Shown piece after piece: positions 31,515-53,399 of a stretch of DNA of 64,000 bases. Where the stretch lies: the IMG/VR virus record IMGVR_UViG_3300022561_000002; one strand, given 5' to 3'. Made by a program: the position numbers and the translations under genes. Each line of letters begins with the position of its first letter. Position 1 is the first letter of the stretch. Source of the stretch: a virus (taxonomy: Duplodnaviria; Heunggongvirae; Uroviricota; Caudoviricetes). A model generated the notes under the pieces. It worked only from the letters and a program-made list of their open reading frames with translations, searched no databases and had not been told where the DNA came from.

Positions 31515-32375
31515 TTATTGTGCATTTACAATAGGTGTTCCACCTTGGATAGTAACCCAACCATGTTTTATACGAGCTTCCGCATTCCTCATATCAATTA
31601 GAGCAGGAGTAATAGATGAAGAGATTAGAGTATTTGCCTGCGCTTGACCACGAGCTGCCTCGATAGCCGCATTAGCTTGACCCTGAGCTTTAATAACTAC
31701 AGTTTGAGCTTCAATTGTGATCTTTTGCTGTTCCTGCTTAGCCGCTTCCAGCTCTTGAGCTACTTTACTACGTTTAATCATAGCGTCTTCAATAGATTTA
31801 TCAAGTTTTACTCTTGTAATACTACATGATTCTACACTAATCCCGTATTCTATCAACCTATCAGTCATTACTTTTGTAAGTTCAGTATTTAATTCAGCCT
31901 TTTTATCCATATAACATTCCATTACAGTATATTTTGATGTAACTTCTCCAACATATCTCTTAACTTTAGATTTAATAATGTTATTAACTACATCTTCTCC
32001 ACTCATACCACGATATCTAGTGAATACTTTAGAAACATCTTCTGCTTTAAAACTATAAGCCATTTCAATATCTACATTCATTCTACCATCTTTACAGGAT
32101 ACATCAAAACTCTCATTTGTTGGGCTTCCTTCAGTCTTAGATTTTGTCATTAACAACTGTTCTGTTGCTATTGAGTAAGTAGTAACTTTCTTTGTAGGCG
32201 ATATAACGTGCCAACCCTGTGAAAGCACTTCTTCTTGAATACCACCATTCATGCTATATACAACTCCTACATATCCCTGTGGTACTTTTTTTACCATTGC
32301 TAGAGTAAACCCTAGTGCAATAACTGCTACAATAATAATTCCGATCAATGCCTTAATCCTCTTTGATGTCATCAT
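31515..32375 (-). CDS. SPFH / band-7 (HflK/C- or prohibitin-like) membrane protein
   Basis: TM helix then VPQGYVGVV band-7 signature and a coiled-coil C-terminus; start set at the MMTSKR ATG with an AAGGAG RBS. Confidence 0.55.
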   Translation of the reverse strand: MMTSKRIKALIGIIIVAVIALGFTLAMVKKVPQGYVGVVYSMNGGIQEEVLSQGWHVISPTKKVTTYSIATEQLLMTKSKTEGSPTNESFDVSCKDGRMNVDIEMAYSFKAEDVSKVFTRYRGMSGEDVVNNIIKSKVKRYVGEVTSKYTVMECYMDKKAELNTELTKVMTDRLIEYGISVESCSITRVKLDKSIEDAMIKRSKVAQELEAAKQEQQKITIEAQTVVIKAQGQANAAIEAARGQAQANTLISSSITPALIDMRNAEARIKHGWVTIQGGTPIVNAQ

Positions 32376-32529
32376 TTGTTTTCTCCTTTTGTTCCTCATC
32401 TTCAACGTTTTCTTCTTCTCTAAAAATATCCAGCAATTTATTTGCCGAATCATATATCCAATTGCCACTAAGGGCAGAGATAACTATGGCTACCAAGAAA
32501 ATAATAGCTAAACACATTATAATGAACAT
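32353..32529 (-). CDS. Possible small membrane protein overlapping the SPFH gene start
   Basis: 58 aa ORF MFIIMCLAIIFLVAIV...; weak RBS. Confidence 0.25.
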   Translation of the reverse strand: MFIIMCLAIIFLVAIVISALSGNWIYDSANKLLDIFREEENVEDEEQKEKTNDDIKED

Positions 32530-32573: not shown

Positions 32574-34055
32574 CTAGACTGTAATACAGTCATAGGTAGG
32601 GTCACTTAGGGTAGCTACCATTAAGTCATAGGCGCTCTTATCGATGTTATCAATAAGGCTTTTGAACGCAGATGGAGAAGAGCCTGAGATATATTGGATT
32701 TTAGGATTAGTTATTTTTTCAAGGAACGTATCTCTACGAGCCTCTACATTCCACATAACTATTTTTGGCATGTCGTAGCCGGCCGCATTGAACTTCTCTT
32801 CCATTACACTTAAGAATGACCAAGAACGATCGCTGTAGCCAAAGTAATCAATTTCTCCGTCAGATATAACCACAATTGCTTTTGGCATATCTTCCATTGT
32901 TACTTTGTTATCTACTGATGTCTTTAATACTAAGTCTAAAGCTGCCTCTAGGTCAGTATTATCGATTAAAGCTTCGATTCCTCTAACTTTTTCAGCAAGA
33001 GTATCTCCTTTTAATCTAACAAACTTTGGTCTGCTACTGAATGTTAAGAATAAATCCTTAAACTCTCCAGTATTTCTTTCTGCAAAGTACACAGCAAGAG
33101 AAACCGCAGTATTCAATGGTTTTCCTTCCATTGAACCAGAAGTGTCAGCCATAACTAATAGGTTCATTGGTTTTTCTATATAGTTAGGAAGAGCTTTCCA
33201 TTGTAGTTCAGAAATCTTATCATCGTTACAAGATAAGTTATCATTTCTCCAACCACCAGCTCTAACTTCCATAGCTGCGAAAATGTCGTAAGGGTATAGA
33301 GTTGCGGCATTGATTGTCTCTTCTCCACTCTCTACTTTTGCTATGAATCCTTCGAAGGCTTCAGGTACTCTCTTCATGAAGGCAGTTCTATATATAGACA
33401 TAGCTCTAGAAGGAACTTCGTTGAACTTAATTTCAGTCCACTCGTTGTTACTCATACGAGCTTCAACAATATCTATATAATTTCTTAATACAGATAGAGT
33501 TATCCTATATTCTTTTTCAGTAAGACCTAATTTTTTCGCAGTAAGACGTCCAAGAGCACGACTTTTATTTGAAGAAGTATTAGCAGACTTTAACCATTTA
33601 GCTAAAAGACTAATCGAATTACCTGCTGTCATATTCTCAATGTCAAGCATTAATTGTGTGCCAAACATTTCCCATATTTCGCTTTCTAGTGGAGTGCCCA
33701 CTAAAGCATATAAGTCATCCCATCTACCAAAGTCTGCGACAAAAAAGATATTTTTTCTCATAACTTCTGTGTGCTTATTTGCAAGGTGTTTGATTATTGT
33801 TTTGAAAGTCTTTCTCTCTCCTAGTCCGCCTCTGATATTACGGGCATAGAAAGCCATCTTTGTTGCTAACAAAGCATCTTCCTTAAAAGCTTCTTCGAAG
33901 ATTCCAAATACATCATATTCATTTCTATCTCTAATAGAGCCAATTATACCAAACATATCCACTAAAGGACTTTTTGTTGTTACATAAGCGTTTGCTCCAT
34001 TTTCAGTTTTTGTTTTTGTTAGTTCGTTGTTAACTCCATTTACAAATGTGTTCAT
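32574..34055 (-). CDS. TROVE-like plus vWA domain protein (Ro60/Rsr-like)
   Basis: About 300 aa N-terminal region with a YARNIRGGLGERKTF..KHLANK pattern resembling the Ro60 YKQRNGWSHKD..HLK region, then MIDAS ADTSGSM vWA; total 493 aa as in bacterial Rsr. Confidence 0.45.
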   Translation of the reverse strand: MNTFVNGVNNELTKTKTENGANAYVTTKSPLVDMFGIIGSIRDRNEYDVFGIFEEAFKEDALLATKMAFYARNIRGGLGERKTFKTIIKHLANKHTEVMRKNIFFVADFGRWDDLYALVGTPLESEIWEMFGTQLMLDIENMTAGNSISLLAKWLKSANTSSNKSRALGRLTAKKLGLTEKEYRITLSVLRNYIDIVEARMSNNEWTEIKFNEVPSRAMSIYRTAFMKRVPEAFEGFIAKVESGEETINAATLYPYDIFAAMEVRAGGWRNDNLSCNDDKISELQWKALPNYIEKPMNLLVMADTSGSMEGKPLNTAVSLAVYFAERNTGEFKDLFLTFSSRPKFVRLKGDTLAEKVRGIEALIDNTDLEAALDLVLKTSVDNKVTMEDMPKAIVVISDGEIDYFGYSDRSWSFLSVMEEKFNAAGYDMPKIVMWNVEARRDTFLEKITNPKIQYISGSSPSAFKSLIDNIDKSAYDLMVATLSDPTYDCITV

Positions 34056-34123
34056 CTAGATACTCCTTTGGTTCTTCGAGGGAATGCTGTTCGCATCTAA
34101 TTTTGTATATTTCTTATATTATT

Positions 34124-34152
34124 ATTATATAATATTTTAAAAAACTTGTCAA
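34124..34152 (-). promoter_or_regulatory. Sigma-A-type promoter for the Rsr-like gene (-35 TTGACA, 17 nt, -10 TATAAT on the minus strand)
   Basis: Reverse complement reads TTGACAAGTTTTTTAAAATATTATATAAT; abuts the terminator at 34151-34180. Confidence 0.6.
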
Positions 34153-34180
34153 AAAAAGGGTGGTTTACACCACCTTTTTT
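34151..34180. terminator. Rho-independent terminator hairpin flanked by A and T runs
   Basis: aaaaaaaGGGTGGtttacaCCACCtttttt. Confidence 0.6.
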
Positions 34181-34183
34181 ATT

Positions 34184-34273
34184 CTAACATTCAGTATATC
34201 CACAGTGTGGGCAATACCATCCGGGTCCATCTTTAGTCATTTCATTTCCGCATCTGCAACATTCGTGTTTCAT
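34184..34273 (-). CDS. Tiny zinc-ribbon peptide (29 aa)
   Basis: MKHECCRCGNEMTKDGPGWYCPHCGYTEC; between a promoter and a terminator. Confidence 0.3.
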   Translation of the reverse strand: MKHECCRCGNEMTKDGPGWYCPHCGYTEC

Positions 34274-34342
34274 AATTTTATCTCCTTTTTATTCTTATTA
34301 TATCATAAAATTATACTACTGTCTACAAACATTTAATCTTTT

Positions 34343-34418
34343 TGGTAACGGGAGAAAGGATCGAACTTTCATTGTGAGGATCAAAACCTCATGTAATTAA
34401 CCATTATACCATCCCGCT
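34343..34418 (-). tRNA. tRNA-Gln (anticodon TTG)
   Basis: Hand-folded cloverleaf: acceptor AGCGGGA/TCCCGTT, T-loop TTCGATC, encoded CCA. Confidence 0.55.
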
Positions 34419-34501
34419 ATATATGTAGCCGATATTGCGAACTTCCCTCGGCAAACGGGGACCTGTGTTTAAAGAGGTGGCATCATCGACCCTCTAGAAG
34501 C

Positions 34502-34654
34502 TTACGCTTCTCTAGCTGCTTTTCTTGCTTTACGGCAATAAGAGCATCTAATTGGTTCATTTTCAAAACCTTTTTCTTTGTAAAACTCTTGTTCTCCAAC
34601 TGTGAAAGTGAATTCACAACCGCAGTCTTTACATACGATAATTTTATCTGACAT
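34502..34654 (-). CDS. Small zinc-ribbon protein (50 aa)
   Basis: CKDCGC...CSYC with GGAGG RBS; lies inside the tRNA cluster. Confidence 0.35.
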   Translation of the reverse strand: MSDKIIVCKDCGCEFTFTVGEQEFYKEKGFENEPIRCSYCRKARKAAREA

Positions 34655-34798
34655 TTGTATTCCTCCTTTTAGATGGGATAATTCTTTGACCTGTCCATAA
34701 AAGGAGGGTATTAAAAAATTTCCGAGATTATGTGCTGGATTGAGGACCTTAACGTCCCTCTAAGGACAACCGGCTAACCCAGTGATTTTAAAGATTTC

Positions 34799-34873
34799 AC
34801 TAAAATCTTGGCGGATTGAGTAGGATTTGAACCTACAACCCTTCGGTTAACGGCCGAGAGCACCACCGTTGTG
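34799..34873 (-). tRNA. tRNA-Asn (anticodon GTT)
   Basis: Acceptor GGATTGA/TCAATCC, T-arm GTAGG-TTCAAAT-CCTAC, CCA; one mismatch in the anticodon stem. Confidence 0.5.
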
Positions 34874-34877
34874 CTAT

Positions 34878-34952
34878 CAATCCATATTGGTAGGTCTACT
34901 GAGAATCGAACTCAGATGAATGATTTAGAAGACCATTGCTCTGTCCATTGAG
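34878..34952 (-). tRNA. tRNA-Arg (anticodon TCT)
   Basis: Anticodon stem ATGGT/ATCAT with loop CTTCTAA; T-arm CTGAG-TTCGATT-CTCAG; CCA. Confidence 0.65.
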
Positions 34953-34953
34953 C

Positions 34954-35036
34954 TATAAACCTATGGCACCAAAGCGAGGAGTCGAACCCATTGCTAATGC
35001 TTTTGGAGAGCATCCCACGTCCAACGCAGTTTAAAG
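34954..35036 (-). ncRNA. Aberrant 83-nt tRNA-like element (Trp-like CCA anticodon arm, enlarged D region)
   Basis: Acceptor ACCAGAG/CTTTGGT plus CCA; anticodon arm ATGCT-CTCCAAA-AGCAT; weak T-stem; about 7 extra nt in the D region. Confidence 0.3.
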
Positions 35037-35042
35037 TTACTC

Positions 35043-35127
35043 TGGTATGATTTGGAGGAGAGTTAGGGAATCGAACCCTATAAAGTTTGACCTCACGACT
35101 GCGTTCAAAACAGCTTACCACCATTAG
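35043..35127 (-). tRNA. tRNA-Ser (anticodon TGA), type II
   Basis: Long variable arm; anticodon loop TTTGAAC; T-arm GGGTTCGATTCCC; CCA. Confidence 0.65.
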
Positions 35128-35181
35128 TCTACTCTCCATATATATAAGGACTACTACTGAGAGTAGCCCTTATAAGATTAT

Positions 35182-36207
35182 TTATTCAGTTTCTTTCTTT
35201 CTACCAAGTAGCATGATGCCTCCCGCAGATATCAACATTAATCCCATTAATAGTATAAGGTCTAATGAACCTCCTGTTTGTGGAATAACATCTAAAACTG
35301 GTTCTTCTGTTATAACAGCAGGTGGTGTAATTGCAGGCGGTGTAACTATAATTGCAACTGGCGTAACTATAACCGCAGGTGGAGTTACCACAACAGCAGG
35401 TGGAGTTACTATAGTTGTAGTGTGATGATGATGAGTAACTGGTACAACTGGTATAACTGGTACATCAGGCACCTTATATTCATTTACAAATAATACTTCT
35501 TTCGTTGGATTATCTTCATCTATAGTAACTATCATAGATATAGGTGAGGTAATATTTGTATAAGCGTCATCTGCGATATCTACTTCAGTAAAGGTATATG
35601 TTCCATAAGGAAGATTTAATGTTTTAATACCGCCTTCACTTACAGTATCTGAAGTTAAAGGTAAATTCTTTTCTGTTTTTACATAAGTAAATCCGAATGA
35701 TGTGTTATCAACAATATCTACTCCATTACTGTCTATAACATTTTTAATTACTTCTATTGTTCCTACTTGAGGTTCAATAAAATCATTAGTAAAAGTATAA
35801 AACATATCCCCATTAATTTTACCCGTTTCTACACTTGATGGCTCAACTTGAGTATATCCATCATGAGAGACTTCAACAATTTTAAATTTCATATCTCCAG
35901 GAGCATAACTAAATGTTCCAGGAGTTTTCTCGGAAGCTGTAATTGTTGTAAAAGGTTTCCATTCATGTGTCGGAGGCTTAGGTTTTTTTTCAGAAATAAC
36001 ATCTTCTGTTATATTTGCGTCTTGATTAATTTCTCCCCAAACATAAACTTCAAATGTGAATTCTGTAGTATTAGGTTCTACTCCTCCATTTACAATCTTA
36101 TTGATTGTAACAATACCTGGAGTGCACGCAAATGCTGACATCGGAACTGTAAATAATAGGATTAATGCCATAATCAAGATAGTCGAAAGTAATCTTTTTT
36201 TAACCAT
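35182..36207 (-). CDS. Sortase-anchored (IPQTG) cell-wall surface protein with Cna-B/pilin-like isopeptide-type domains
   Basis: N-terminal signal peptide; GTYTFTEVD...AYTNI motif typical of Cna-B/SpaA-type domains; Pro-rich VTPPAV repeats; C-terminal IPQTGG, hydrophobic helix and RKKETE tail. Confidence 0.55.
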   Translation of the reverse strand: MVKKRLLSTILIMALILLFTVPMSAFACTPGIVTINKIVNGGVEPNTTEFTFEVYVWGEINQDANITEDVISEKKPKPPTHEWKPFTTITASEKTPGTFSYAPGDMKFKIVEVSHDGYTQVEPSSVETGKINGDMFYTFTNDFIEPQVGTIEVIKNVIDSNGVDIVDNTSFGFTYVKTEKNLPLTSDTVSEGGIKTLNLPYGTYTFTEVDIADDAYTNITSPISMIVTIDEDNPTKEVLFVNEYKVPDVPVIPVVPVTHHHHTTTIVTPPAVVVTPPAVIVTPVAIIVTPPAITPPAVITEEPVLDVIPQTGGSLDLILLMGLMLISAGGIMLLGRKKETE

Positions 36208-36575
36208 AATTCCATCTCCTTTATAAATAAAGTTTGAATGGAACTCAACGGCAACTACACGACCATGATAAAAATTTTAGGTTGTAGCTTTGCGAGTTTA
36301 TCTTTTGATAAACGTGCCTTTTCGTAATTCCTAAAAAATATAATACAAGGTTGGTTGTGTATCCTTGTATTTTATATAAATTTGAGTTTAATTCGCAACA
36401 TAATAGCTATTGTATGTTTGCATGAAGATTATTCTTTTGCCAATAGGCTTAAACTCCTTACCTATATCTCGTTCTTCTTCAGTTCATCCCGCGAGATCCT
36501 TAAATGAACTATATAAACTCTCTTAAATACCGCGCCTATGCATTCTTACTTTGGAATTTATGCATAACCTACTAT

Positions 36576-36649
36576 TGGTGGACCGGCAGGGAATCGAACC
36601 CTGATGAAATGCTTGCAAAGCACCCATAATCCCGTTATATGACAAGCCC
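36576..36649 (-). tRNA. tRNA-Ala (anticodon TGC)
   Basis: G3:U70 pair present; anticodon loop TTTGCAA; T-arm CAGGG-TTCGATT-CCCTG; CCA. Confidence 0.55.
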
Positions 36650-36653
36650 ATAT

Positions 36654-36727
36654 TGGTAAATCTAACAGGAATTGAACCCGTGTCTCAGCGTTCGTAGCGC
36701 TGCATCCTTCCTCTAGACGATAGATTT
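36654..36727 (-). tRNA. tRNA-Arg (anticodon ACG)
   Basis: Anticodon stem CAGCG/CGCTG with loop CTACGAA; acceptor AAATCTA/TAGATTT; CCA. Confidence 0.6.
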
Positions 36728-36962
36728 ATATTTACTTAGACGCGGCTGTACCAGTTTTCGGCAACTAAGCCTACTAATCTGGGTTCTCATGTCTAAAGCA
36801 AATTTCAATATATTATATTGCAAGTATAATATATTAGGGGATTCTTGCAAAATACCCTTTGTTATTATTAGCTTACCTGTTGCGCAAGTCGCCATAATAC
36901 GGGAATAAGTTATTAGGCATTCCAGGCCTTCTCTTATTTAAGGAGTTGAGAATCTCTTTTTC

Positions 36963-37031
36963 ACACTCAAATGGGAATCGAACCCATGCTGGGGCCGCAA
37001 TGACCGCGTACTTCCATTATACTATTAAGTG
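36963..37031 (-). ncRNA. Aberrant 69-nt tRNA-like element (intact acceptor, D and T arms; truncated or unpaired anticodon region; no encoded CCA)
   Basis: Acceptor CACTTAA/TTGAGTG, D-arm GTAT..GTAC, T-arm ATGGG-TTCGATT-CCCAT, but only 19 nt where the anticodon arm plus variable loop should be. Confidence 0.3.
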
Positions 37032-37130
37032 ATATAAAATACGGTTAGCTTGCTGCTGCAATTTAATTACTTCATCATCGTAAACTAACCGTGGCAGTTA
37101 GCCCGCGGACGGTACTAACGTGATCCCTTT

Positions 37131-37205
37131 TGGTAGACAGTAATGGAGTTGAACCACTCTTGTTCGGATATAAGCCGAATGCACTTACCGATGTACTAAC
37201 TGTCC
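37131..37205 (-). tRNA. tRNA-Ile (anticodon TAT; reads AUA)
   Basis: Perfect anticodon stem TTCGG/CCGAA with loop CTTATAT; acceptor GGACAGT/ACTGTCT; CCA. Confidence 0.6.
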
Positions 37206-37472
37206 ATGAATAATCTTTTTTATGCTTTCTTCAGTTCACCCTTAACAAAGCACTAAGGAGGTTTGTTCTCTTTCACCAACACGGCGGTAGGATTTATCTT
37301 ACGGCCATACCCTACGAAACGGCTTAACTATCTGGCAGGTAAAGCTAATAACCTTGCCTAGCGTGAAGCATCCCGCTAATTAGTTTTTCGTATGTCACTA
37401 ATAAACACCCTTTTAGAGTTTGTTTATACTGGAGTCTCTGTTAGTTCAACGTATTGTTCCAGTGATTGTTTG

Positions 37473-37545
37473 TGGAGCGCCAGGCTGGAATCGAACCAGC
37501 TCTAATGGGGTTGCAATCCATCTTCTCTCCAAGAGAAACTAACGC
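37473..37545 (-). tRNA. tRNA-Cys (anticodon GCA)
   Basis: Anticodon loop TTGCAAC; T-arm GCTGG-TTCGATT-CCAGC; short D-loop; CCA. Confidence 0.5.
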
Positions 37546-37548
37546 ATA

Positions 37549-37809
37549 TTATGGCTTTAATATTTCGCCATATTCTTTTATAATACTTTCTCTATTTTCT
37601 TCTTCAAGAAAAATTACATAAGCCATTATATCAGCATCTAAACCTTCTTCTTCTGCTTGCTCTTCAGTCCCAAAATCATTGGCACGAGAAAATGCTAATT
37701 CATCAGCATATTCATATATACTTTCTATAGACATACCATCAGCGAATTCATATACTTCATCAAAGTCTTCTCCGCAATAGCAAGTTTCTGTTTTAATATT
37801 TAATAACAT
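37549..37809 (-). CDS. Hypothetical acidic protein
   Basis: 86 aa ORF directly downstream of a consensus promoter. Confidence 0.4.
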   Translation of the reverse strand: MLLNIKTETCYCGEDFDEVYEFADGMSIESIYEYADELAFSRANDFGTEEQAEEEGLDADIMAYVIFLEEENRESIIKEYGEILKP

Positions 37810-37851
37810 AATGTCCTCCTTTTATTTTTTCTTGTTTTTTGATTATGATAT

Positions 37852-37880
37852 ATTATACTATATTTTTTAAACTTTGTCAA
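37852..37880 (-). promoter_or_regulatory. Consensus promoter upstream of the ORF at 37549-37809
   Basis: TTGACA-17-TATAAT on the minus strand. Confidence 0.6.
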
Positions 37881-37887
37881 GAATTTT

Positions 37888-37975
37888 TGGCGGAGAAGGT
37901 GAGGTTCGAACTCACGTGCCTATTACAACCTAATTGTTTAGCAAACAATCCTCTTTACCATTTGAGTACTTCTCC
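37888..37975 (-). tRNA. tRNA-Ser (anticodon GCT), type II
   Basis: Anticodon stem ATTGT/ACAAT with loop TTGCTAA; long variable arm; T-arm GTGAG-TTCGAAC-CTCAC; CCA. Confidence 0.65.
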
Positions 37976-38913
37976 ATACAAATTGCGACAATTGGCGTTG
38001 CCGCAATTAGAGTCCTTTTCTACACGTGGTAGATAGGTAATTAAATCCACCATTCTATCGACTATTTACGGTGGCAACCCTGTCAAACAAGGAAAGCTTT
38101 CTTTGTTTGTGGACTTACTGCCATATAATGAATGGTCGCCACTAATTGATTGATTTTATTGTTGTCCGCCAACCCTCCGGCCCATACGTCCGGCAGTGCT
38201 TTTTTTACTTTCGGATTAAAGTGTCAATCCACTCATAATTCAACATTCCATTGCTTGTTTATGTTGACAACCCACTCAAAAACAAGGAGATTACGCTTAA
38301 GTTTTCTCTTGTTTAGGACTTACGACCATTTACGTAAAATGACTGCCTAGATTTTACAGTACCTCTCTTTTGGTGGAGGCTCACCAACTGAATAAATCTT
38401 CCACTTTTTGTATACAGGCAGGAACTCTCCTTTTTTTCAGCTCCCTACTAAGGCAAGGGGTTTCCATTATAATCTTTTGTGTTGCTTGGGTATAACGTGC
38501 CAGGTTTAAGCTACATTAGTTTCCTAATGCTCGCATCTTAAGCGAAGCCTTTAGCAGCCGACTTTCGTCGCTATACACAAAAGTTTTTATTAATGTGGAT
38601 AGGGATTTGCACCCTATATGATATATTCGCTTACAAATTTCATATTCTTTGTAACACATATCTAGTCTAATGTCTACTATTGATAACAATGGAGAACTTG
38701 TTCCAACGTCAATCTTTACCATAGCACGAGCAGGTTATACCCCTCGTAAGGCTATGTCTTTTCCACCACCACATTATTATTTTTTCTTTTTTAACCTTAT
38801 AATATATTATATCATATTTTTTGAAAGTTTGCAATAGAAATTTCAAATTCATGAAGTTTATCTGTGCATAATATGTATATTATTTAGCTTTAAAAAATCA
38901 CTTCTGTCCAAAT

Positions 38914-39123
38914 TTATCTTGATTTTCTTTGGTCGATCTTATACCATATAGTAAGATAAATCACAACCACAGAAGCCAAAGCAAACCCGATCCAAAGTGG
39001 AGATAGAACCCACCACCAACTCCAGCTAATTAAATTAGTAATCTTTAGTATTATAAATATAATAAGTATAACACTAAGAAAACTCATTCCACCTTTATCC
39101 TGTACATCTATTCTATTTTTCAT
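38914..39123 (-). CDS. Small membrane protein
   Basis: 69 aa, two TM helices (WWWVLSPLWIG). Confidence 0.35.
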   Translation of the reverse strand: MKNRIDVQDKGGMSFLSVILIIFIILKITNLISWSWWWVLSPLWIGFALASVVVIYLTIWYKIDQRKSR

Positions 39124-40324
39124 TTTTTTCTCCCGCCTTAAAATTATATATTGGTTTAATTATGCTAACGATGTCTACTGTATCTCCTATACAAGATATG
39201 ATTTCTTCCATTGGTTTATAAGCCATTGGAGCTTCATCAAGAGTAGATTTATTAACAGAAGTAGTATAGATCCCTTCCATTGATTTTTCAAATTCATCAA
39301 GAGTTACTAACTCTTTAGCTTTACTTCGACTCATGATACGACCTGCGCCATGTGGAGCAGAGTAGTTCCAATCAGAATTACCTTTACCAACACATATTAA
39401 ACTTCCGTCTCTCATGTTCATTGGTATGATTAATCTCTCATTTTCATAAGCAGAAACCGCACCTTTTCTCAAGATTCCTGCTCCTACATCAATGTAATTA
39501 TGGATTGTATCAAAAACATCTATTGGTTGATATTTAGTTTTTATATGTGAAAATATCTCTGATACGATGGCACTTCTATTCCACAAAGCAAACTCTTGTG
39601 CAATTTGAATATCGTTTAAGTAATCGTCTAAGTTTCCGCCCTCAAGCCACGATAGTGCTTTGCTGAATTTTGGGAGATTAAATTGTGCAAGTGCTGACTC
39701 AATTTCTTTTTCTTTACCTTTTGCTTTTAAGTGATTAACAATATTATCTCTTTCAAGAGTTCTATTATTTAAAGTTTTAAATGCTAAATCTTGGTAGTAT
39801 TCAGCAATTTGTTTGCCGAAATTTCTACTACCAGTGTGTATAACAACATATATATCCCCAGAGTCATCAGTACAAACTTCAATAAAGTGATTTCCACCAC
39901 CTAAAGTTCCTATACTTAATTTAGCTCTTTCTACATTGATAGCAGAAGAACATCTTAATCTATCAAAATTTACAAAACCAGCGAAAAAGTGGACCTCTTG
40001 CCGCACATTAAAACCAGAAGGTACATATTTTTCAATGACTTCATCTAATTCCTTAACGTCAAAACCGTCTTCTTCTCTTAATTTTACTACCTTCATCCCG
40101 CAAGCGATATCAACACCTACTAGATTTGGCACTATTTTAGTACCCAATGTCATAGTTGTACCTATAGTACAGCCAGCACCAGCGTGTACGTCTGGCATTA
40201 TTCTTATTTGACTTCCTTTAGAGAACTCTTGATTGCACAATTCGATAATTTGTCCAATAGCTGTTTCTTCTATGTTGTCTGTAAATACTTTTGCTGTATT
40301 AAATTTCCCTTTTAGTTCAATCAT
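39113..40324 (-). CDS. rtcB: RtcB-family RNA ligase (3'-phosphate/5'-OH)
   Basis: MPDVHAGAGCTIGTT, GGGNHFIEV and SAPHGAGR RtcB signature motifs. Confidence 0.8.
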   Translation of the reverse strand: MIELKGKFNTAKVFTDNIEETAIGQIIELCNQEFSKGSQIRIMPDVHAGAGCTIGTTMTLGTKIVPNLVGVDIACGMKVVKLREEDGFDVKELDEVIEKYVPSGFNVRQEVHFFAGFVNFDRLRCSSAINVERAKLSIGTLGGGNHFIEVCTDDSGDIYVVIHTGSRNFGKQIAEYYQDLAFKTLNNRTLERDNIVNHLKAKGKEKEIESALAQFNLPKFSKALSWLEGGNLDDYLNDIQIAQEFALWNRSAIVSEIFSHIKTKYQPIDVFDTIHNYIDVGAGILRKGAVSAYENERLIIPMNMRDGSLICVGKGNSDWNYSAPHGAGRIMSRSKAKELVTLDEFEKSMEGIYTTSVNKSTLDEAPMAYKPMEEIISCIGDTVDIVSIIKPIYNFKAGEKNEK

Positions 40325-40337
40325 TTGCTCTCTCCTT

Positions 40338-40580
40338 TTATACTATTTCATATATATCAGTTAGCTTCTCACCAGCGTTTATTCGATTTTGTCTAATAAT
40401 AATAGACTCTAAAATTCTCATTCCAGCTGCTTTATCTTTATAATTTGCGATTTCTGACGCAGAACTTTGGTCTTTGCCAGCCAGTAATATAGATATACCA
40501 TCTTCTTTAAGACCAACAGTAACTAAATGAAAATATTCACAATTTACTATCATAGTTTTATTTTTACTTCTAACCCACAT
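40338..40580 (-). CDS. Hypothetical protein
   Basis: 80 aa ORF. Confidence 0.4.
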   Translation of the reverse strand: MWVRSKNKTMIVNCEYFHLVTVGLKEDGISILLAGKDQSSASEIANYKDKAAGMRILESIIIRQNRINAGEKLTDIYEIV

Positions 40581-40604
40581 TTTGATCTCTCCTTATTAAT
40601 ATAT

Positions 40605-40811
40605 TTAAAATGGTGTAGTATCTGCTATTTGATGTACTTGTCCTTCTTCTTCTTCTTCTATAACTTCAGCAGTAGATTCAATTACATCATCAAAGTGAAG
40701 ACTATTTTCTTCTTCTGCTTTTACCATATCGTCTATATTATGACCTACACTAAACAAAGCCATTAAATCTTCCATTCCATACATATTATAATCATTATAG
40801 AAATCACCCAT
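40605..40811 (-). CDS. Hypothetical acidic protein
   Basis: 68 aa ORF, Glu-rich C-terminus. Confidence 0.35.
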   Translation of the reverse strand: MGDFYNDYNMYGMEDLMALFSVGHNIDDMVKAEEENSLHFDDVIESTAEVIEEEEEGQVHQIADTTPF

Positions 40812-41331
40812 TGTAATACCTCTTTATTTCATCAAAATTTATCGGAGTGTAGTTAATCATTTCAACACTAACATTATAATATAAATTCTTTCCGTCACTA
40901 TTTAATAATGTTTGTGTCGTATTATGTATATGTCCATGAATATTCACATATGGAATACTCGGATTTAAAAATACAGGTTTGTGTGAAGCAATATAAAATT
41001 CTTCAACTATAATCGTGTTTCTCGATACTTCTTCGAATCCTGCCGCAAGATATAAAGCAACAGATCTATCGTGATTACCACGAACCATTCTCTTTCTACC
41101 ATTTAATTGTTTAGTAAAAAATTCAATTTGTTCTGCTCCGCCTAAACAAAGGTCACCAAGAAAATAAACTATATCAGTGTTTTTAACAACAGAATTCCAA
41201 TTTTTTATAATCGTTTTATTCATTTCTTCTACTGATGTGAACTCTCTATTACAATATTGCATAATATTCTTATGATTAAAATGTGTATCCGAGATAAAAA
41301 ACGTTTTAGTGTTGCCACCCATATAATCCAC
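40804..41331 (-). CDS. Calcineurin-like metallophosphoesterase
   Basis: FFISDTHFNH, GDLCLGG and RGNHD motifs. Confidence 0.6.
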   Translation of the reverse strand: MDYMGGNTKTFFISDTHFNHKNIMQYCNREFTSVEEMNKTIIKNWNSVVKNTDIVYFLGDLCLGGAEQIEFFTKQLNGRKRMVRGNHDRSVALYLAAGFEEVSRNTIIVEEFYIASHKPVFLNPSIPYVNIHGHIHNTTQTLLNSDGKNLYYNVSVEMINYTPINFDEIKRYYNG

Positions 41332-50519: not shown

Positions 50520-50595
50520 TTGGAGTGCAAGGAGGGAATCGAACCCTCATCTACTGGGTGGAAGCCGGTAATATTAAGCCGTTATACGACTCGCA
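50520..50595 (-). tRNA. tRNA-Gly (anticodon TCC)
   Basis: Acceptor GTGCGAG/CTTGCAC; anticodon loop CTTCCAC (one stem mismatch); T-arm GAGGG-TTCGATT-CCCTC; CCA. Confidence 0.55.
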
Positions 50596-50898
50596 CATAT
50601 TTTAGTGGCAGAACTATTTTGCTTTAATGAGCGTATATGTTCACTTGTTGACTATTCGGAATCTTAGAAATTGATTTTCGGACCGCGCTATAGGTTGTCG
50701 AAACAGTATCGCCGCATTAGTTAAGTATGCGTGGGCTTTGTTAGCCTATATACCATTTAATCTCCTTTTGCTTAGTAGAAGACACACTTTTCCTAAAACC
50801 AAACAACTTTAATTCTCCCAAACTTTCAGTCGCCACTTGGCGCATCTTATTTTAACGACTAGGTGCCAAAGTCGAGTGTATGTACTGGGCACTGCCCA

Positions 50899-50973
50899 TG
50901 GAGCCACCGATAGGAGTCGAACCTACAACCTGCTGATTACAAATCAGCTGCTCTACCATTGAGCCACGAGGGC
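50899..50973 (-). tRNA. tRNA-Thr (anticodon TGT)
   Basis: Anticodon stem GCTGA/TCAGC with loop TTTGTAA; T-arm GTAGG-TTCGACT-CCTAT; CCA. Confidence 0.6.
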
Positions 50974-51042
50974 ATATAACAAGACACAGTTTGTTTCTAT
51001 CAAATAAGAATTTTTTTAGTTGCTGTTCGTGTCTTTAATTTT

Positions 51043-51120
51043 TGGGGGGATAGATGAGATTCGAACTCACAATTTAATAGATTCACAATCTACCGCGTCT
51101 GCCCATTCCGCCACTAACCC
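51043..51120 (-). tRNA. tRNA-His (anticodon GTG)
   Basis: Anticodon stem GTAGA/TCTAT with loop TTGTGAA; 3' end ...CCCCCCA consistent with a His C73/extra 5' residue arrangement; one acceptor mismatch. Confidence 0.5.
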
Positions 51121-51421
51121 TATGTAGTAAAGAGAGGAGAAAATAAGGGCCACTTTAGGTGTGATTCCCTCGAAAAGTCCTTAATCTCAAGCTTCTTATT
51201 CACTCGGCCTTCCAGCCTCGGGCTACACTCCCGTTTCCGCAGAGAGCGACTCTACATCTAGACTTAGCCATAACTCCAAAAGTCGAAACTAAGGGTCAAC
51301 TTCACTAAATCTAAGTTCATATGCGGGGTGAATGAACTCCACTGTCAAGGTGGAGATAGAAACCCTATCACGCTTTGTTTCTTTACCATTCCATCTTATT
51401 GTATATGGTTAAACCCAATCA

Positions 51422-51520
51422 TGGGCACAAGGTTGGAGTCGAACCAACTCAACACGATCTCTCATAAAGCAACTGTAAGGCTTTATTACTTCCCGTTCCC
51501 CGCCGTCGGGTATCTTGCGC
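51422..51520 (-). ncRNA. Aberrant ~99-nt tRNA-like element (canonical acceptor, T-arm and CCA; extra GC-rich insert on the 5' side)
   Basis: Acceptor GCGCAAG/CTTGTGC; T-arm GTTGG-TTCGACT-CCAAC; internal AAAGC-(9 nt)-GCTTT hairpin; no standard cloverleaf. Confidence 0.3.
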
Positions 51521-51523
51521 ATG

Positions 51524-51592
51524 TGGTGCGAAAGGTAGGACTCGAACCTACAGCGTTTCTATGTCACTGATTTACAGTCAGCTTGCTTCGCC
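51524..51592 (-). ncRNA. Short (~68 nt) noncanonical tRNA-like element, anticodon unclear
   Basis: T-arm GTAGG-TTCGAGT-CCTAC and CCA end are clear; acceptor pairing is imperfect; anticodon arm reduced to ACTG-TAAAT-CAGT. Confidence 0.3.
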
Positions 51593-51611
51593 AATTTGCA
51601 TACTCGCGCAT

Positions 51612-51687
51612 TTGGTGGGAAAACTTGGTATCGAACCAAGATCTTTCGGGCTTCAACCGAACACATAAACCATCTATGTTATCTTCC
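51612..51687 (-). tRNA. tRNA-Phe (anticodon GAA)
   Basis: Anticodon stem TTCGG/CCGAA with loop TTGAAGC; acceptor GGGAAGA/TTTTCCC; T-arm CTTGG-TTCGATA-CCAAG; CCA. Confidence 0.7.
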
Positions 51688-51781
51688 CATGTGGATAGTT
51701 TAACGTCAATATCTAGGACGACCTCTGGAGAGGCTAGCAAGCCAGGTGACCTATGGTTACTTTATACTCTTAACCAAGAGT

Positions 51782-51859
51782 TGGTGATATTAGTGGGCCT
51801 CGAACCCACAGAACTCTACCGTGAAAGGGTAGCGGCTTTACCAATTTGCCCATAATACC
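51782..51859 (-). tRNA. tRNA-Glu (anticodon TTC)
   Basis: Anticodon stem CTACC/GGTAG with loop CTTTCAC; T-arm GTGGG-TTCGAGG-CCCAC; acceptor GGTATTA/TAATATC; CCA; 6-nt variable loop. Confidence 0.5.
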
Positions 51860-51862
51860 ATG

Positions 51863-51938
51863 TGGTGCTTACAGCAGGGTTCGAACCTACGACTTCTTCC
51901 TTGTAAGGGAAGCACTCTACCAACTGAGTTATGTGAGC
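51863..51938 (-). tRNA. tRNA-Val (anticodon TAC)
   Basis: Anticodon stem CTTCC/GGAAG with loop CTTACAA; T-arm GTAGG-TTCGAAC-CCTGC; CCA. Confidence 0.6.
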
Positions 51939-52086
51939 AGGGGACCCCGTATATGTGTTAGTTGTTAACTATTAAACTAACTTTTATCCTATCAGGAAAG
52001 ACTACGAGGTCAGAGCCTTGATCAGTACTTACAACGAGGGATCGATATCATCATAACCATATTGATTGCATTTATAGCCTGCCGGC

Positions 52087-52161
52087 TTGGCGACGAATGC
52101 GAGAATTGAACTCGCGTCTCACGGCTGACAACCGCGCATGTTGACCACTATACCAAAACGC
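52087..52161 (-). tRNA. tRNA-Asp (anticodon GTC)
   Basis: Anticodon stem CGCGG/CCGTG with loop TTGTCAG; T-arm GCGAG-TTCAATT-CTCGC; CCA; imperfect acceptor stem. Confidence 0.5.
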
Positions 52162-52266
52162 CATATATATAGAAGTTTTTTATGTTGTCACATATTATTC
52201 TTCCCGAGTGGACTGCTTTAATTCCATATCCGCAAATTAGAATGAAACCGATTAGACAACTAGGTC

Positions 52267-52370
52267 TGGTGGAGACGATGGGAATTGAACCCATGTCCAA
52301 AACATATACTACTAATACTCCTTTTACGCTCTTGCTTTCGTTCGATCAGGTCTCAGGCTGCACCACCAAT
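52267..52370 (-). ncRNA. Aberrant ~100-nt tRNA-like element with a long bulged 5'/3' terminal helix (Y-RNA-like candidate)
   Basis: T-arm ATGGG-TTCAATT-CCCAT and CCA present; the 5' GGTGG...GAGAC segments pair with 3' GTCTC-CACC around a bulge; no anticodon arm recognisable. Confidence 0.3.
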
Positions 52371-52732
52371 TTTTCCTAAAATTGGAAAATATTATATATA
52401 TTCCTTGAGCCTCAAGCACTTGCCCTATATAAGGGATTACTGTTTTGCACGTAATCTAGCCTACGCTGCTAATTGATATTCGTTGTCGATTATTCAATTG
52501 TTTTGGTTATATAGTAACCACTCTAGCGAAAGTATTAGGTTCTCTGCCCTGTCGAAACCTGACGTCCCCATATTAGTGTTAAAAAACGACTTTGATTAGA
52601 TATATAATTACTAAAATAGCAATTATTGTTCCTAAAATGCCCATATCAGCGCCTTCTTTCTTTTTGACAGTTATTGCGGCAAGGGAACTGTAAAACCCAC
52701 GATGCCTTGGCGGCAGCATCACCATATAGCCA

Positions 52733-52810
52733 TTGGTCGGGACAGTAGGATTCGAACCTACGACTTTCCGGTTCCAGACCGGGCACTCTGGCCAAGCTGA
52801 GCTATACCCC
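52733..52810 (-). tRNA. tRNA-Pro (anticodon TGG)
   Basis: Acceptor CGGGGTA/TGTCCCG; anticodon loop TCTGGAA; T-arm GTAGG-TTCGAAT-CCTAC; CCA. Confidence 0.6.
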
Positions 52811-52818
52811 GATATAAT

Positions 52819-52895
52819 TTGGTGCGAACAGTGGGATTCGAACCCACACAATCTAGCTTCTAAGGCTAGCACGTATACCAGTTCCATCACGCTCG
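52819..52895 (-). tRNA. tRNA with anticodon TAG (Leu) but a short type-I variable loop
   Basis: Perfect anticodon stem CTAGC/GCTAG with loop CTTAGAA; T-arm GTGGG-TTCGAAT-CCCAC; A73; CCA. Confidence 0.5.
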
Positions 52896-52898
52896 CAT

Positions 52899-52976
52899 GT
52901 GGTAGGTAGAAAGGGACTTGAACCCTTGCTTGTGAGGGCTTAAACCTCATGCCTCTGCCAATTGGGCTATCTACCC
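52899..52976 (-). tRNA. tRNA with anticodon TAA (Leu) but a short type-I variable loop
   Basis: Anticodon stem TGAGG/CCTCA with loop TTTAAGC; T-arm AAGGG-TTCAAGT-CCCTT; acceptor GGGTAGA/TCTACCT; A73; CCA. Confidence 0.55.
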
Positions 52977-53319: not shown

Positions 53320-53394
53320 TGGTGCAAGAGATAGGATTCGAACCTATGACCGCTCGCGTATCAGACGAGTACTCTACCACTGAGTTACACTTGC
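53320..53394 (-). tRNA. tRNA-Ile (anticodon GAT)
   Basis: Anticodon stem CTCGT/GCGAG with loop CTGATAC; T-arm ATAGG-TTCGAAT-CCTAT; CCA. Confidence 0.65.
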
Positions 53395-53399
53395 ATATT

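What the first reader, a model, noticed from the sequence alone, without database searches (positions are those of the whole stretch)
32574..41331. Candidate phage-borne Rsr(Ro60-like) / Y-RNA-like / RtcB RNA-repair module spanning tRNA cluster I
A 493-aa TROVE-like plus vWA protein (32574-34055) has the same architecture as bacterial Rsr. It lies at one end of an interval that ends in an RtcB RNA ligase (39113-40324) and a metallophosphoesterase (40804-41331). Between them are 9 canonical tRNAs, two aberrant tRNA-like RNAs and about 1 kb of structured noncoding sequence. In bacteria such as Salmonella and Deinococcus, rsr, Y RNAs (tRNA-like YrlA) and rtcB are co-encoded as an RNA repair and quality-control operon. 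This phage arrangement recapitulates that linkage. It would be a phage counter-measure to host anticodon nucleases or RNA damage. The TROVE assignment rests only on architecture and one motif pattern.
Basis: partly seen in the sequence, partly recalled or inferred. Interest (0 to 1): 0.8.

Follow-up and report, generated by a model that had tools for sequence, protein, structure and literature searches.

The report
Phage Ro60-like protein beside tRNAs and RtcB
An uncultured low-GC phage carries a Ro60-shaped RNA-binding protein, a tRNA gene array and an RtcB RNA ligase close together, which is a recurring phage RNA-maintenance neighbourhood rather than an operon, and it has no recognisable Y RNA here, although many relatives encode a conserved tRNA-like RNA just upstream of the same protein.

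Summary

It is not an operon. The Ro-like gene has its own consensus promoter behind a terminator. Five other genes and a c-di-GMP riboswitch lie between it and rtcB.

No YrlA or Y RNA model matches, although the same scan finds YrlA beside the canonical Ro60 of phage Bxz1.

The linkage recurs. DUF2828 lies within 1.5 kb of tRNAs in 15 of 23 phage lineages, and near RtcB in 10 of 35 lineages. Only 1 of 87 RtcB-anchored loci has DUF2828.

Many relatives carry a covarying 105-132-nt tRNA-like RNA (hairpin plus ACAGCAA) just upstream of DUF2828. In three loci it forms compact trios with RtcB. The window has no copy.

Phage Ro-like proteins next to tRNAs are already published (Bas63 gp130 counters Ppl defence). 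This is a new member of a known kind.

The parts
32574..34055 (-). Ro60-fold RNA-binding-type protein (493 aa): N-terminal helical ring domain (Pfam DUF2828) plus C-terminal vWA (DUF7788) with a DxSxS MIDAS motif (D304, S306, S308)
34124..34174 (-). Own transcription signals of the Ro-like gene: intrinsic terminator (34159-34174) followed by a 12/12 sigma-70 consensus promoter (34124-34152)
   Evidence: The promoter is one of three near-identical promoter copies (family D4).
34184..34273 (-). 29-aa CxxC...CxxC zinc-ribbon mini-ORF with its own promoter (34297-34325)
   Evidence: Read from the sequence. Called as a gene in the identical contig L005. Promoter.
34343..35137 (-). tRNA sub-array proximal to the Ro-like gene: tRNA-Gln(ttg) 34343-34418, tRNA-Asn 34809-34883, tRNA-Arg(tct) 34888-34962, degenerate tRNA-Trp(cca)-like 34968-35035, tRNA-Ser(tga) 35053-35137. 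The 50-aa zf_Tbcl gene (34502-34654) lies inside it.
   Evidence: ARAGORN, Rfam, fold, Pfam zf_Tbcl E 1e-22.
35182..36328 (-). Intervening and unrelated: c-di-GMP-I riboswitch (36247-36328) in front of a 341-aa secreted protein with DUF7601 and SpaA domains and an IPQTG cell-wall sorting signal
   Evidence: Rfam 50.3 bits against a gathering score of 35, Pfam, translation.
36576..37975 (-). Distal tRNA sub-array: tRNA-Ala, tRNA-Arg(acg), aberrant 69-nt tRNA-Gln(ttg)-like (36963-37031), tRNA-Ile(tat), tRNA-Cys, tRNA-Ser(gct). It includes 99-267-nt spacers and an 86-aa acidic ORF (37549-37809) behind a 12/12 promoter (37852-37880).
37976..38834 (-). Orphan ~0.8-kb noncoding stretch behind a promoter (38806-38834). 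It contains a tandemly duplicated ~135-nt unit (38216-38351 and 38007-38140, 74% identical) that shares a hairpin with compensatory changes.
   Evidence: No gene called. MFE z -3.55. Duplication. No Rfam family at E<=10. No homologue in any set searched.
38914..39123 (-). 69-aa membrane protein (PHROG 1374) overlapping the rtcB stop
39113..40324 (-). RtcB 3'-phosphate/5'-OH RNA ligase with intact Cys, His and GMP-His motifs
   Evidence: Pfam E 9e-66, PHROG 1075 E 2e-142. Alignment to P. horikoshii RtcB keeps the DIxCG, GNHF, HTGSR and HGAGR motifs.
40804..41331 (-). 175-aa calcineurin-type metallophosphoesterase (PHROG 547). The same family recurs near DUF2828 in Enterococcus phage VRE9_4 and other loci.

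Best explanation
The window shows the tRNA island of a large, low-GC, uncultured phage. Several independently transcribed genes for RNA upkeep are gathered in and around this island:
- a divergent Ro60-fold ring protein (DUF2828 / PHROG 850)
- an RtcB ligase
- a small metallophosphoesterase

Inferred mechanism:
1. The Ro-like ring binds misfolded, unprocessed or nuclease-damaged tRNA-type RNAs made from the adjacent array. It may also bind host tRNAs.
2. It either shields these RNAs or passes them to processing and repair enzymes.
3. RtcB reseals tRNAs cut by host anticodon nucleases, which leave 2',3'-cyclic phosphate and 5'-OH ends.
4. Together these activities keep translation going and blunt host defence.

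Shown here: the fold, the domain content, intact RtcB motifs, separate promoters and recurrent synteny.

Inferred only: RNA binding, the identity of the substrates, and any cooperation between the Ro-like protein and RtcB.

In this phage no dedicated Y-type RNA is detectable. Many relatives do encode a tRNA-like RNA directly upstream of the gene.
For: - Residues: conserved basic residues in the ring domain and an invariant MIDAS motif.
- RtcB: catalytic motifs intact.
- tRNA synteny: the nearest tRNA is within 1.5 kb of DUF2828 in 15 of 23 phage lineages clustered at 70% identity. These include Tsamsa, Listeria LP-064, a Felixounavirus, Synechococcus B23, Enterococcus VRE9_4 and Campylobacter NCTC12673. 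In NCTC12673 the three annotated tRNAs lie 231 nt upstream and no others occur in the 13 kb fetched.
- tRNA control: only 3 of 40 and 5 of 47 RtcB-anchored loci have a tRNA that close.
- RtcB synteny: RtcB lies within the fetched flanks of DUF2828 in 4 of 23 phage lineages and 6 of 12 genome/MAG lineages, with gaps down to 77 nt and in either order. Locus L106 repeats the exact order RtcB, tRNAs, DUF2828.
- Partner RNA in relatives: a covarying tRNA-like RNA lies upstream of and co-oriented with DUF2828 in 99 of 158 loci. It is absent from 956 kb of control loci.
- Experiments in the literature: Bas63 gp130 is Ro60-like, sits directly upstream of the tRNAs and counters the Ppl defence system (PMC11482910). 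phiLo Ro60 binds Y-like RNAs and host PNPase (PMC12135203). LeBron gp53 is toxic when overexpressed (PMC13148394).
Against: - No RNA binding has been shown for any DUF2828 protein.
- Neither sequence nor profile searches connect it to Ro60. The homology rests on fold alone.
- The genes are separate transcription units about 5 kb apart, with an unrelated riboswitch-controlled adhesin gene between them.
- Most phage RtcB genes have no DUF2828 nearby: 1 of 87 loci.
- Some DUF2828 lineages have neither tRNAs nor RtcB nearby, for example Faith1 and Fnu1.
- The Ppl system countered by Bas63 gp130 is proposed to degrade DNA, not tRNA.
- A calcineurin-type phosphoesterase would remove the very ends that RtcB needs, so its role alongside RtcB is unclear.
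Confidence: 0.6

Rival explanations
1. This is a complete Rsr / Y RNA / RtcB ribonucleoprotein module, with the Y-like RNA hidden among the window's noncoding pieces. Candidates are the 0.8-kb orphan RNA, the aberrant tRNA-Gln-like or tRNA-Trp-like elements, and the 98-nt tRNA-like RNA at 51423-51520.
For: - Relatives have a dedicated tRNA-like RNA next to DUF2828, sometimes in compact trios with RtcB: L279, L242 and L288.
- The window contains unexplained structured RNA: z -3.55 and a duplicated unit with compensatory changes.
- The window also has aberrant or extended tRNA-like elements.
- Known Y RNAs are hard to find by homology (PMC4201824).
Against: - No YrlA or Y_RNA hit at E<=10, while the same scan detects YrlA next to Bxz1 Ro60.
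- Covariance model R1 of the DUF2828-linked RNA scores only ordinary tRNAs in the window, at 33.8 bits or less with filters off. True members score 55-99 bits.
- No ACAGCAA motif occurs in the right context.
- The aberrant tRNA-likes fold no better than shuffled sequence.
- The 0.8-kb RNA has no homologue anywhere, so nothing ties it to the protein.
Confidence: 0.15
2. The co-location is incidental. tRNA islands of large phages are insertion hot spots for accessory genes. The DUF2828 protein then has a role unrelated to RtcB or tRNAs, for example vWA-mediated binding of a host protein or inhibition of a defence system such as Ppl.
For: - The transcription units are separate, and an unrelated riboswitch-controlled adhesin cassette lies in the same island.
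- Only 1 of 87 RtcB-anchored loci has DUF2828 nearby.
- Faith1, Fnu1 and several metagenomic lineages lack nearby tRNAs.
- The one genetic phenotype known is against a putative DNA-degrading system (PMC11482910).
Against: - tRNA adjacency holds in 15 of 23 lineages across unrelated phage families and hosts. RtcB-anchored loci show it in only about 8-11% of cases.
- RtcB adjacency occurs in either order and with gaps as small as 77 nt, even in loci without tRNA arrays.
- A specific tRNA-like RNA co-occurs with the gene.
Confidence: 0.13
3. The Ro-like protein works like Thermus phage phiLo Ro60. It captures a host exoribonuclease such as PNPase, with or without an RNA tether. This damps RNA decay or nuclease-dependent immunity, and it acts independently of RtcB.
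For: - phiLo Ro60 forms complexes with PNPase and attenuates it (PMC12135203).
- The conserved MIDAS motif suggests a protein partner.
Against: - No Yrl-type RNA is detectable here.
- No PNPase-related evidence comes from this window.
- This model does not explain the recurrent tRNA and RtcB synteny.
Confidence: 0.12

Closest known systems
Salmonella/Deinococcus rsr-Y RNA(yrlBA)-rtcBA RNA repair operon
   Same: A Ro60-fold ring plus vWA protein and an RtcB ligase are encoded near each other, with tRNA-type RNAs between them. Relatives of the window protein even form compact trios of Ro-like gene, tRNA-like RNA and RtcB.
   Different: - The protein belongs to Pfam DUF2828, not TROVE.
- No YrlA.
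- No RtcA or RtcR found among the window ORFs scanned.
- Not one operon: about 5 kb apart, several promoters and a terminator, and unrelated genes in between.
Canonical phage Ro60 with YrlA (mycobacteriophage cluster C, e.g. Bxz1 gp220; Chen et al. 2014, PMC4201824)
   Same: A phage-encoded Ro-type protein in a large phage that carries many tRNAs and a tmRNA.
   Different: Bxz1 gp220 is true TROVE plus vWA_Ro60. It has a YrlA match 190 nt upstream on the same strand. The window protein meets neither test, and model R1 does not match the Bxz1 RNA.
Thermus phage phiLo Ro60 with Yrl1/Yrl2 and host PNPase (PMC12135203; PDB 9l5y)
   Different: The phiLo RNAs were picked by a CGAA motif upstream of the gene. 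No comparable RNA is supported here, and PNPase interaction is untested.
Escherichia phage Bas63 gp130 (Felixounavirus; PhageMaP preprint PMC11482910)
   Same: It is described as structurally Ro60-like and lying directly upstream of the tRNA stretch. The Felixounavirus counterpart tested here (SP116) is DUF2828+DUF7788 with 22 annotated tRNAs starting 166 nt downstream. It is the only genetic phenotype for this protein type.
   Different: - Gram-negative myovirus, about 33% identical.
- The phenotype is protection against Ppl, an ATPase-PHP system, not shown for tRNA damage.
- That Bas63 gp130 is the SP116 ortholog is inferred, not tested here.
Listeria phage LP-064 (P100-like) tRNA island
   Same: The same set of neighbours in a cultured Firmicute phage: a tRNA array, a small zinc-finger ORF, DUF2828, a phosphohydrolase and RtcB (1.3 kb downstream), with a large structured RNA in the island.
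   Different: The gene order is reversed relative to the window. The large RNA there matches ROOL (87 bits, below the gathering score), whereas the window's 0.8-kb RNA matches nothing. LP-064 also has an ATP-dependent RNA ligase.
ROOL / GOLLD large ornate phage RNAs
   Same: The window's 0.8-kb noncoding stretch is likewise promoter-driven and sits in a phage tRNA island. The size is similar and the function unknown (10.1101/2024.12.08.627333).
   Different: No match to either covariance model at E<=10. No homologues, so no covariation support beyond its own internal duplication.

Membership tests
Ro60/Rsr (Pfam TROVE PF05731 + vWA_Ro60 PF25045) | Sequence match to the TROVE and Ro60-vWA profiles | tested here: not met
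   Pfam gives DUF2828 (E 5e-39) and DUF7788/VWA_2 only. phmmer and profile searches of PDB sequences find no Ro60. hhalign against Bxz1 gp220 aligns only the MIDAS segment, probability 3.6%. Control: Bxz1 gp220 hits both profiles.
Ro60/Rsr (Pfam TROVE PF05731 + vWA_Ro60 PF25045) | Helical-repeat ring closed by a C-terminal vWA domain (Ro60 fold) | tested here: met
Ro60/Rsr (Pfam TROVE PF05731 + vWA_Ro60 PF25045) | MIDAS metal-site motif in the vWA domain | tested here: met
   D304-x-S306-x-S308 is invariant in 30 homologues.
Ro60/Rsr (Pfam TROVE PF05731 + vWA_Ro60 PF25045) | Y RNA (YrlA type) encoded within about 4 kb on the same strand | tested here: not met
   No RF02553 or RF00019 hit at E<=10 in 34000-39200. 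The positive control in Bxz1 is found at E 3.9e-4. None found in 16 other DUF2828 loci.
Ro60/Rsr (Pfam TROVE PF05731 + vWA_Ro60 PF25045) | Binds misfolded RNAs or Y RNA through the ring | not testable with these tools
   Needs RIP/CLIP or EMSA.
rsr-yrlBA-rtcBA type RNA repair operon | Ro gene, Y RNA genes and rtcB(A) co-transcribed under one regulated promoter | tested here: not met
   12/12 consensus promoters at 34124-34152 and 37852-37880, a further promoter at 38806-38834, and a terminator at 34159-34174. Five unrelated genes and a riboswitch intervene. No RtcA or RtcR domain among the roughly 50 ORFs scanned.
DUF2828 / PHROG 850 'Ro-like RNA-binding protein' of phages | Full-length match to the family profiles | tested here: met
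   PHROG 850 E 1.8e-126 over residues 1-489. Pfam DUF2828+DUF7788. 710 phage records match, 706 of them over at least 80% of the query.
RtcB RNA ligase (PF01139) | Profile match plus metal-binding Cys/His residues and the GMP-accepting His | tested here: met
   Pfam E 9e-66. The DIACG, GGNHF, HTGSR and PHGAGR motifs align with P. horikoshii RtcB.
DUF2828-associated tRNA-like RNA (model R1, defined here) | tRNA acceptor, D and T arms with the anticodon arm replaced by a conserved hairpin plus ACAGCAA; R1 score about 50 bits or more; upstream of and co-oriented with DUF2828 | tested here: not met
   In the window, with filters off, the best hits are ordinary tRNAs at 33.8 bits or less. No motif in context. 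True members score 55-99 bits.
ROOL (RF03087) / GOLLD large phage RNAs | Match to the covariance model | tested here: not met
   No hit at E<=10 for 37960-38830 or for 34000-39200. As a control of sensitivity, ROOL is found in Listeria phage LP-064 at E 3.6e-16.

The most novel reading that the evidence does not exclude
DUF2828 proteins define a second, widespread Ro-type ribonucleoprotein system of phages. Its RNA partner is not YrlA but a tRNA-shaped RNA. In many gut, rumen and cyanophage lineages the partner would be the dedicated 105-132-nt RNA with the hairpin-plus-ACAGCAA arm. In phages such as this one, which lack that RNA, the partner would be products of the adjacent tRNA array, or an orphan RNA such as the 0.8-kb transcript or the 98-nt extended tRNA-like RNA at 51423-51520. 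The complex would act with RtcB as an anti-defence tRNA surveillance and repair machine.
Probability: 0.25. Interest if true: 0.75.

Novelty: new member of a known kind. Interest (0 to 1): 0.45.

Why it matters
PHROG 850 'RNA-binding protein' occurs in at least 710 sequenced phages, including therapy-relevant Listeria, Staphylococcus, Enterococcus, Campylobacter and Felix O1-type phages. Yet no RNA partner or mechanism is known for it.

This window adds one more instance and shows what is constant and what is optional. The Ro60 fold, a position beside tRNA genes and frequent RtcB linkage are constant. Operon structure and a dedicated small RNA are optional.

The comparative work also gives concrete, testable candidates for the long-suspected Y-like RNAs of these proteins: the covarying tRNA-like RNA upstream of the gene in relatives. 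Together with a tractable genetic phenotype (Bas63 gp130 against Ppl), this makes 'what do phage Ro-like proteins bind and do' directly addressable.

Tried and rejected
- **Near-identical or similar DNA in 50,697 phage records:** none for the 8.8-kb interval or for the 0.8-kb RNA.
- **Homologues of the window's intergenic RNAs:** nhmmer against 89 DUF2828 loci, 40 and 80 RtcB loci found none. A motif scan of IMG/VR with the duplicated-unit consensus gave 3 chance hits. The other contigs of this phage are 99.98-100% identical, so polymorphism gives no information.
- **Known identity for the 0.8-kb region:** tested as YrlA, Y RNA, ROOL, GOLLD, 6S, an intron or a riboswitch. No Rfam match at E<=10.
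- **Sequence-level link of DUF2828 to TROVE:** phmmer, hmmsearch and hhalign all failed.
- **zf_Tbcl gene and the Listeria small zinc-finger gene upstream of DUF2828 as a conserved pair:** not homologous.
- **Shared 'GRTGAACTGAAGAA' motif in two spacers as a paralogous RNA:** the alignment shows only the short motif.
- **Long tRNA-like elements of relatives as intron-containing tRNAs spliced by RtcB:** rejected as the main reading. The assigned anticodons (including stop, atg and aaa) and the intron positions vary widely, whereas the inserted hairpin and ACAGCAA are conserved across different tRNA bodies.
- **ARAGORN 'introns' longer than about 57 nt:** these are artefacts that merge neighbouring tRNAs.
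- **General association of ROOL/GOLLD with DUF2828:** seen in 1 of the 23 DUF2828 loci scanned (17 at permissive E-values, 6 at gathering only), so not general.
- **Literature:** Burroughs & Aravind 2016 and the Sim et al. 2020 review could not be read because they are not held.

Full report
**What is in the window**

The window is about 31% G+C and all genes in this stretch are on the minus strand. The surrounding genes are replication and nucleotide-metabolism genes of a large phage: RecJ, DnaB, gyrase A/B, DNA ligase, RNase H and ribonucleotide reductase. There is also a second tRNA cluster with a tmRNA. The identical Ro-like protein occurs on contigs from several metagenomes, the longest 126,789 bp. 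No cultured phage is similar at the DNA level.

**The three proteins**

- *32574-34055 (493 aa).* It matches Pfam DUF2828 (E 5e-39), DUF7788 and VWA_2, and PHROG 850 'RNA-binding protein' over its full length. It does not match Pfam TROVE. Sequence and profile searches of PDB chains find no Ro60.
- *How common the family is.* It occurs in 710 phage records. It is already annotated as 'Ro-like RNA binding protein' in cluster L mycobacteriophages and as 'RNA-binding protein' elsewhere.
- *39113-40324.* This is RtcB (Pfam E 9e-66) with all catalytic motifs conserved.
- *40804-41331.* This is a calcineurin-type phosphoesterase, PHROG 547.

**The interval between them**

Reading the minus strand from rtcB towards the Ro-like gene:

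1. A 69-aa membrane protein.
2. A promoter, then about 0.8 kb of noncoding sequence.
3. tRNA-Ser.
4. A 12/12 consensus promoter and an 86-aa ORF.
5. tRNA-Cys, tRNA-Ile(tat), an aberrant 69-nt tRNA-Gln-like element, tRNA-Arg and tRNA-Ala.
6. A terminator-like hairpin (read from the sequence; the scan did not list it).
7. A c-di-GMP-I riboswitch in front of a 341-aa SpaA-type surface protein with an IPQTG sorting signal.
8. tRNA-Ser, a degenerate tRNA-Trp-like element, tRNA-Arg and tRNA-Asn.
9. A 50-aa zf_Tbcl protein.
10. tRNA-Gln.
11. A promoter and a 29-aa zinc-ribbon ORF.
12. A terminator.
13. A 12/12 consensus promoter and the Ro-like gene.

This is a mosaic of separate transcription units, not an operon.

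**Search for a Y RNA**

Rfam contains YrlA (RF02553). In the permissive mode it detects a YrlA 190 nt upstream of the canonical TROVE Ro60 of mycobacteriophage Bxz1, at 32.5 bits and E 3.9e-4. The same mode finds no YrlA or Y_RNA in 34000-39200 at E<=10. It also finds none in 16 other DUF2828 loci.

The two aberrant tRNA-like elements fold no better than shuffled sequence and have no extra stem.

The 0.8-kb stretch folds better than shuffles (z -3.55). It contains a tandem duplication whose copies share a hairpin with compensatory changes. It matches no Rfam family, including ROOL and GOLLD, and has no homologue in any set searched. It remains an orphan.

**Is the linkage more than chance?**

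*Anchoring on DUF2828 in phages.* I fetched 80 IMG/VR loci, further metagenomic contigs and 11 cultured phages.

- After clustering at 70% protein identity, the nearest tRNA lies within 1.5 kb in 15 of 23 lineages.
- Examples: 19 tRNAs directly upstream in Bacillus phage Tsamsa; 22 annotated tRNAs directly downstream in a Felixounavirus; the gene embedded in the array in Enterococcus phage VRE9_4; three tRNAs 231 nt upstream in Campylobacter phage NCTC12673.
- Listeria phage LP-064 has the fullest parallel: tRNAs, a ROOL-like RNA, DUF2828, a phosphohydrolase, RtcB 1.3 kb downstream and an RNA ligase.

*Anchoring on DUF2828 in bacterial genomes and MAGs.* These are mostly Lachnospiraceae and other Bacillota, probably prophages or mis-binned phage contigs. 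RtcB lies beside DUF2828 in 6 of 12 lineages, in either order and with gaps of 77-4262 nt, often without any tRNA array.

*Anchoring on RtcB instead.* Only 1 of 40 viral loci and 0 of 47 metagenomic loci have DUF2828 nearby. Only 3 of 40 and 5 of 47 have a tRNA within 1.5 kb.

The Ro-like gene is therefore strongly drawn to tRNA genes and often to RtcB. Most phage RtcB genes, however, work without it.

**A tRNA-like RNA in relatives**

Allowing insertions in ARAGORN revealed 105-132-nt tRNA-like elements in most DUF2828 loci.

- *Position.* They lie 40-1200 nt upstream of DUF2828 on the same strand, singly or in tandem sets of up to four.
- *Frequency.* 99 of 158 loci with enough flank have one. 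230 of 233 elements are upstream and co-oriented.
- *Architecture.* The acceptor, D and T arms are normal. The anticodon arm is replaced by an A-rich strand, a conserved hairpin (UCAUG...GUGA), an almost invariant ACAGCAA and a second, variable hairpin.
- *Not real tRNAs.* The 'anticodons' assigned by the program vary without pattern and include stop codons.
- *Covariation.* In 60 representatives, 92% of cells pair against 67.5% in shuffles. The covariation score is 0.649 against 0.172 (0 of 500 shuffles reach it), and slid controls give 0.15 or less. All 7 pairs of the new hairpin show compensatory changes.
- *Covariance model R1.* True members score 55-99 bits, including one in Synechococcus phage B23. 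Ordinary tRNAs score 41 bits or less. There is no hit of 45 bits or more in 956 kb of RtcB-anchored control loci. R1 does not match the Bxz1 YrlA.
- *Unbiased motif scan of IMG/VR.* 15 of 123 motif hits lie in tRNA-like elements. Of the 13 with enough downstream sequence, 8 have DUF2828 within 2 kb downstream, against 0 of 83 chance hits. The exceptions precede terminase genes.
- *Compact trios.* Three loci place this RNA, DUF2828 and RtcB within about 3.7 kb: L279, L242 and L288. This closely parallels rsr-yrlBA-rtcBA.

I found no description of this RNA in the searchable literature or in Rfam 15. Part of the relevant literature could not be read.

**Is this RNA in the window?**

No. With filters off, R1 scores only ordinary tRNAs (33.8 bits or less), and the motif is absent in context. 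The window does hold an unannotated 98-nt tRNA-like RNA in cluster II (51423-51520). It has a 7-bp acceptor stem, a T arm, an encoded CCA and a 45-nt extended central arm. It lacks the family's motif and lies 17 kb from the gene.

**What is already known**

- Chen et al. found YrlA next to TROVE Ro60 in 22 phages (PMC4201824).
- Iyer et al. list ROT/TROVE proteins with a tRNA-like partner among phage RNA-repair systems, next to RtcB and tRNAs (PMC7824862).
- phiLo Ro60 binds two Y-like RNAs and host PNPase (PMC12135203).
- The PhageMaP preprint shows that Bas63 gp130 is structurally Ro60-like, lies directly upstream of the tRNA genes and is needed to overcome the Ppl defence system. Its authors speculate that some 'tRNAs' are Y RNAs (PMC11482910).
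- LeBron gp53 is toxic on overexpression (PMC13148394).

The concept in the finding is therefore published, and this window is a further instance.

**Verdict**

The most likely function is binding of tRNA-type RNAs for quality control or protection, alongside RtcB repair, as part of counter-defence. Fold and synteny are shown. RNA binding and cooperation with RtcB are inferred.

The most valuable by-product is the DUF2828-linked tRNA-like RNA family in relatives, which gives testable candidates for the missing RNA partner.

Noticed in passing
L001:9812-9924, L027:8920-9362 (three tandem copies), L242:6312-6530, L279:4649-4758, L288:928-1040, L142:6866-6976 (Synechococcus phage B23) and about 100 further loci; alignment A4, model R1: A conserved, covarying 105-132-nt tRNA-like RNA. 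Its anticodon arm is replaced by a hairpin plus ACAGCAA. It lies just upstream of and co-oriented with DUF2828 genes, sometimes in compact trios with RtcB. It is not in Rfam 15 as a separate family and is absent from the window.
   Followed up: yes
window 36247-36328 (-) and 35182-36207 (-): A phage-borne c-di-GMP-I riboswitch (50.3 bits) directly upstream of a 341-aa secreted protein. The protein has DUF7601 and SpaA domains, a VTPPA-type repeat region and an IPQTG sortase signal. The 3' end of the aptamer can pair with the RBS region. It looks like a host-signal-controlled adhesin cassette inserted in the tRNA island.
   Followed up: partly
window 51423-51520 (-): An unannotated 98-nt tRNA-like RNA in the gap between tRNA-His and tRNA-Tyr of cluster II. 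It has a 7-bp acceptor stem, a T arm, an encoded CCA, an odd D hairpin and a ~45-nt extended central arm with a 9-nt loop. ARAGORN and the Rfam gathering run do not call it.
   Followed up: partly
window 37976-38790 (-): An orphan ~0.8-kb promoter-driven noncoding region with a tandemly duplicated ~135-nt structured unit. By position it resembles ROOL/GOLLD-type RNAs of phage tRNA islands, but it matches neither and has no homologues.
   Followed up: partly
L134:4471-5022 (Listeria phage LP-064): A full-length ROOL RNA match (87.4 bits, E 3.6e-16, just under the gathering score of 99.1) inside the tRNA array, 1 kb upstream of the DUF2828 gene. ROOL has no known protein partner. The co-location was seen in only 1 of the 23 DUF2828 loci scanned.
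   Followed up: partly
window 50521-53818 (-): A second tRNA cluster of 15 tRNAs plus a tmRNA (52267-52569, tag DNEYQLAA). With cluster I this gives 25 tRNAs called by ARAGORN in the 64-kb window.
   Followed up: no
window 20222-20878 (-): A 218-aa protein with a borderline match to RlaP, the 'RNA repair pathway DNA polymerase beta family' nucleotidyltransferase (23.3 bits, cutoff 23). A clear RlaP and a CCA-adding enzyme lie about 7 kb from DUF2828 in the related phage L001.
   Followed up: no
window 31515-32468 (-): A Band 7/SPFH protein lies 105 nt downstream of the Ro-like gene. A 37%-identical homologue lies about 3 kb downstream of DUF2828 in several gut-phage loci (L023, L024, L054, L086).
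   Followed up: no
L003:16004-16167 and L106:4137-4201: Other orphan phage RNAs near DUF2828/tRNA islands of relatives: a skipping-rope RNA (46.7 bits) and RAGATH-18 (69.2 bits), both above their gathering scores.
   Followed up: no
window 34124-34152, 37852-37880, 38806-38834 (-): Three near-identical copies of an extended promoter module (35-nt repeat family). Two are perfect 12/12 sigma-70 consensus matches. This suggests strong host-RNA-polymerase-driven transcription of the Ro-like gene, the 86-aa ORF and the 0.8-kb RNA.
   Followed up: partly
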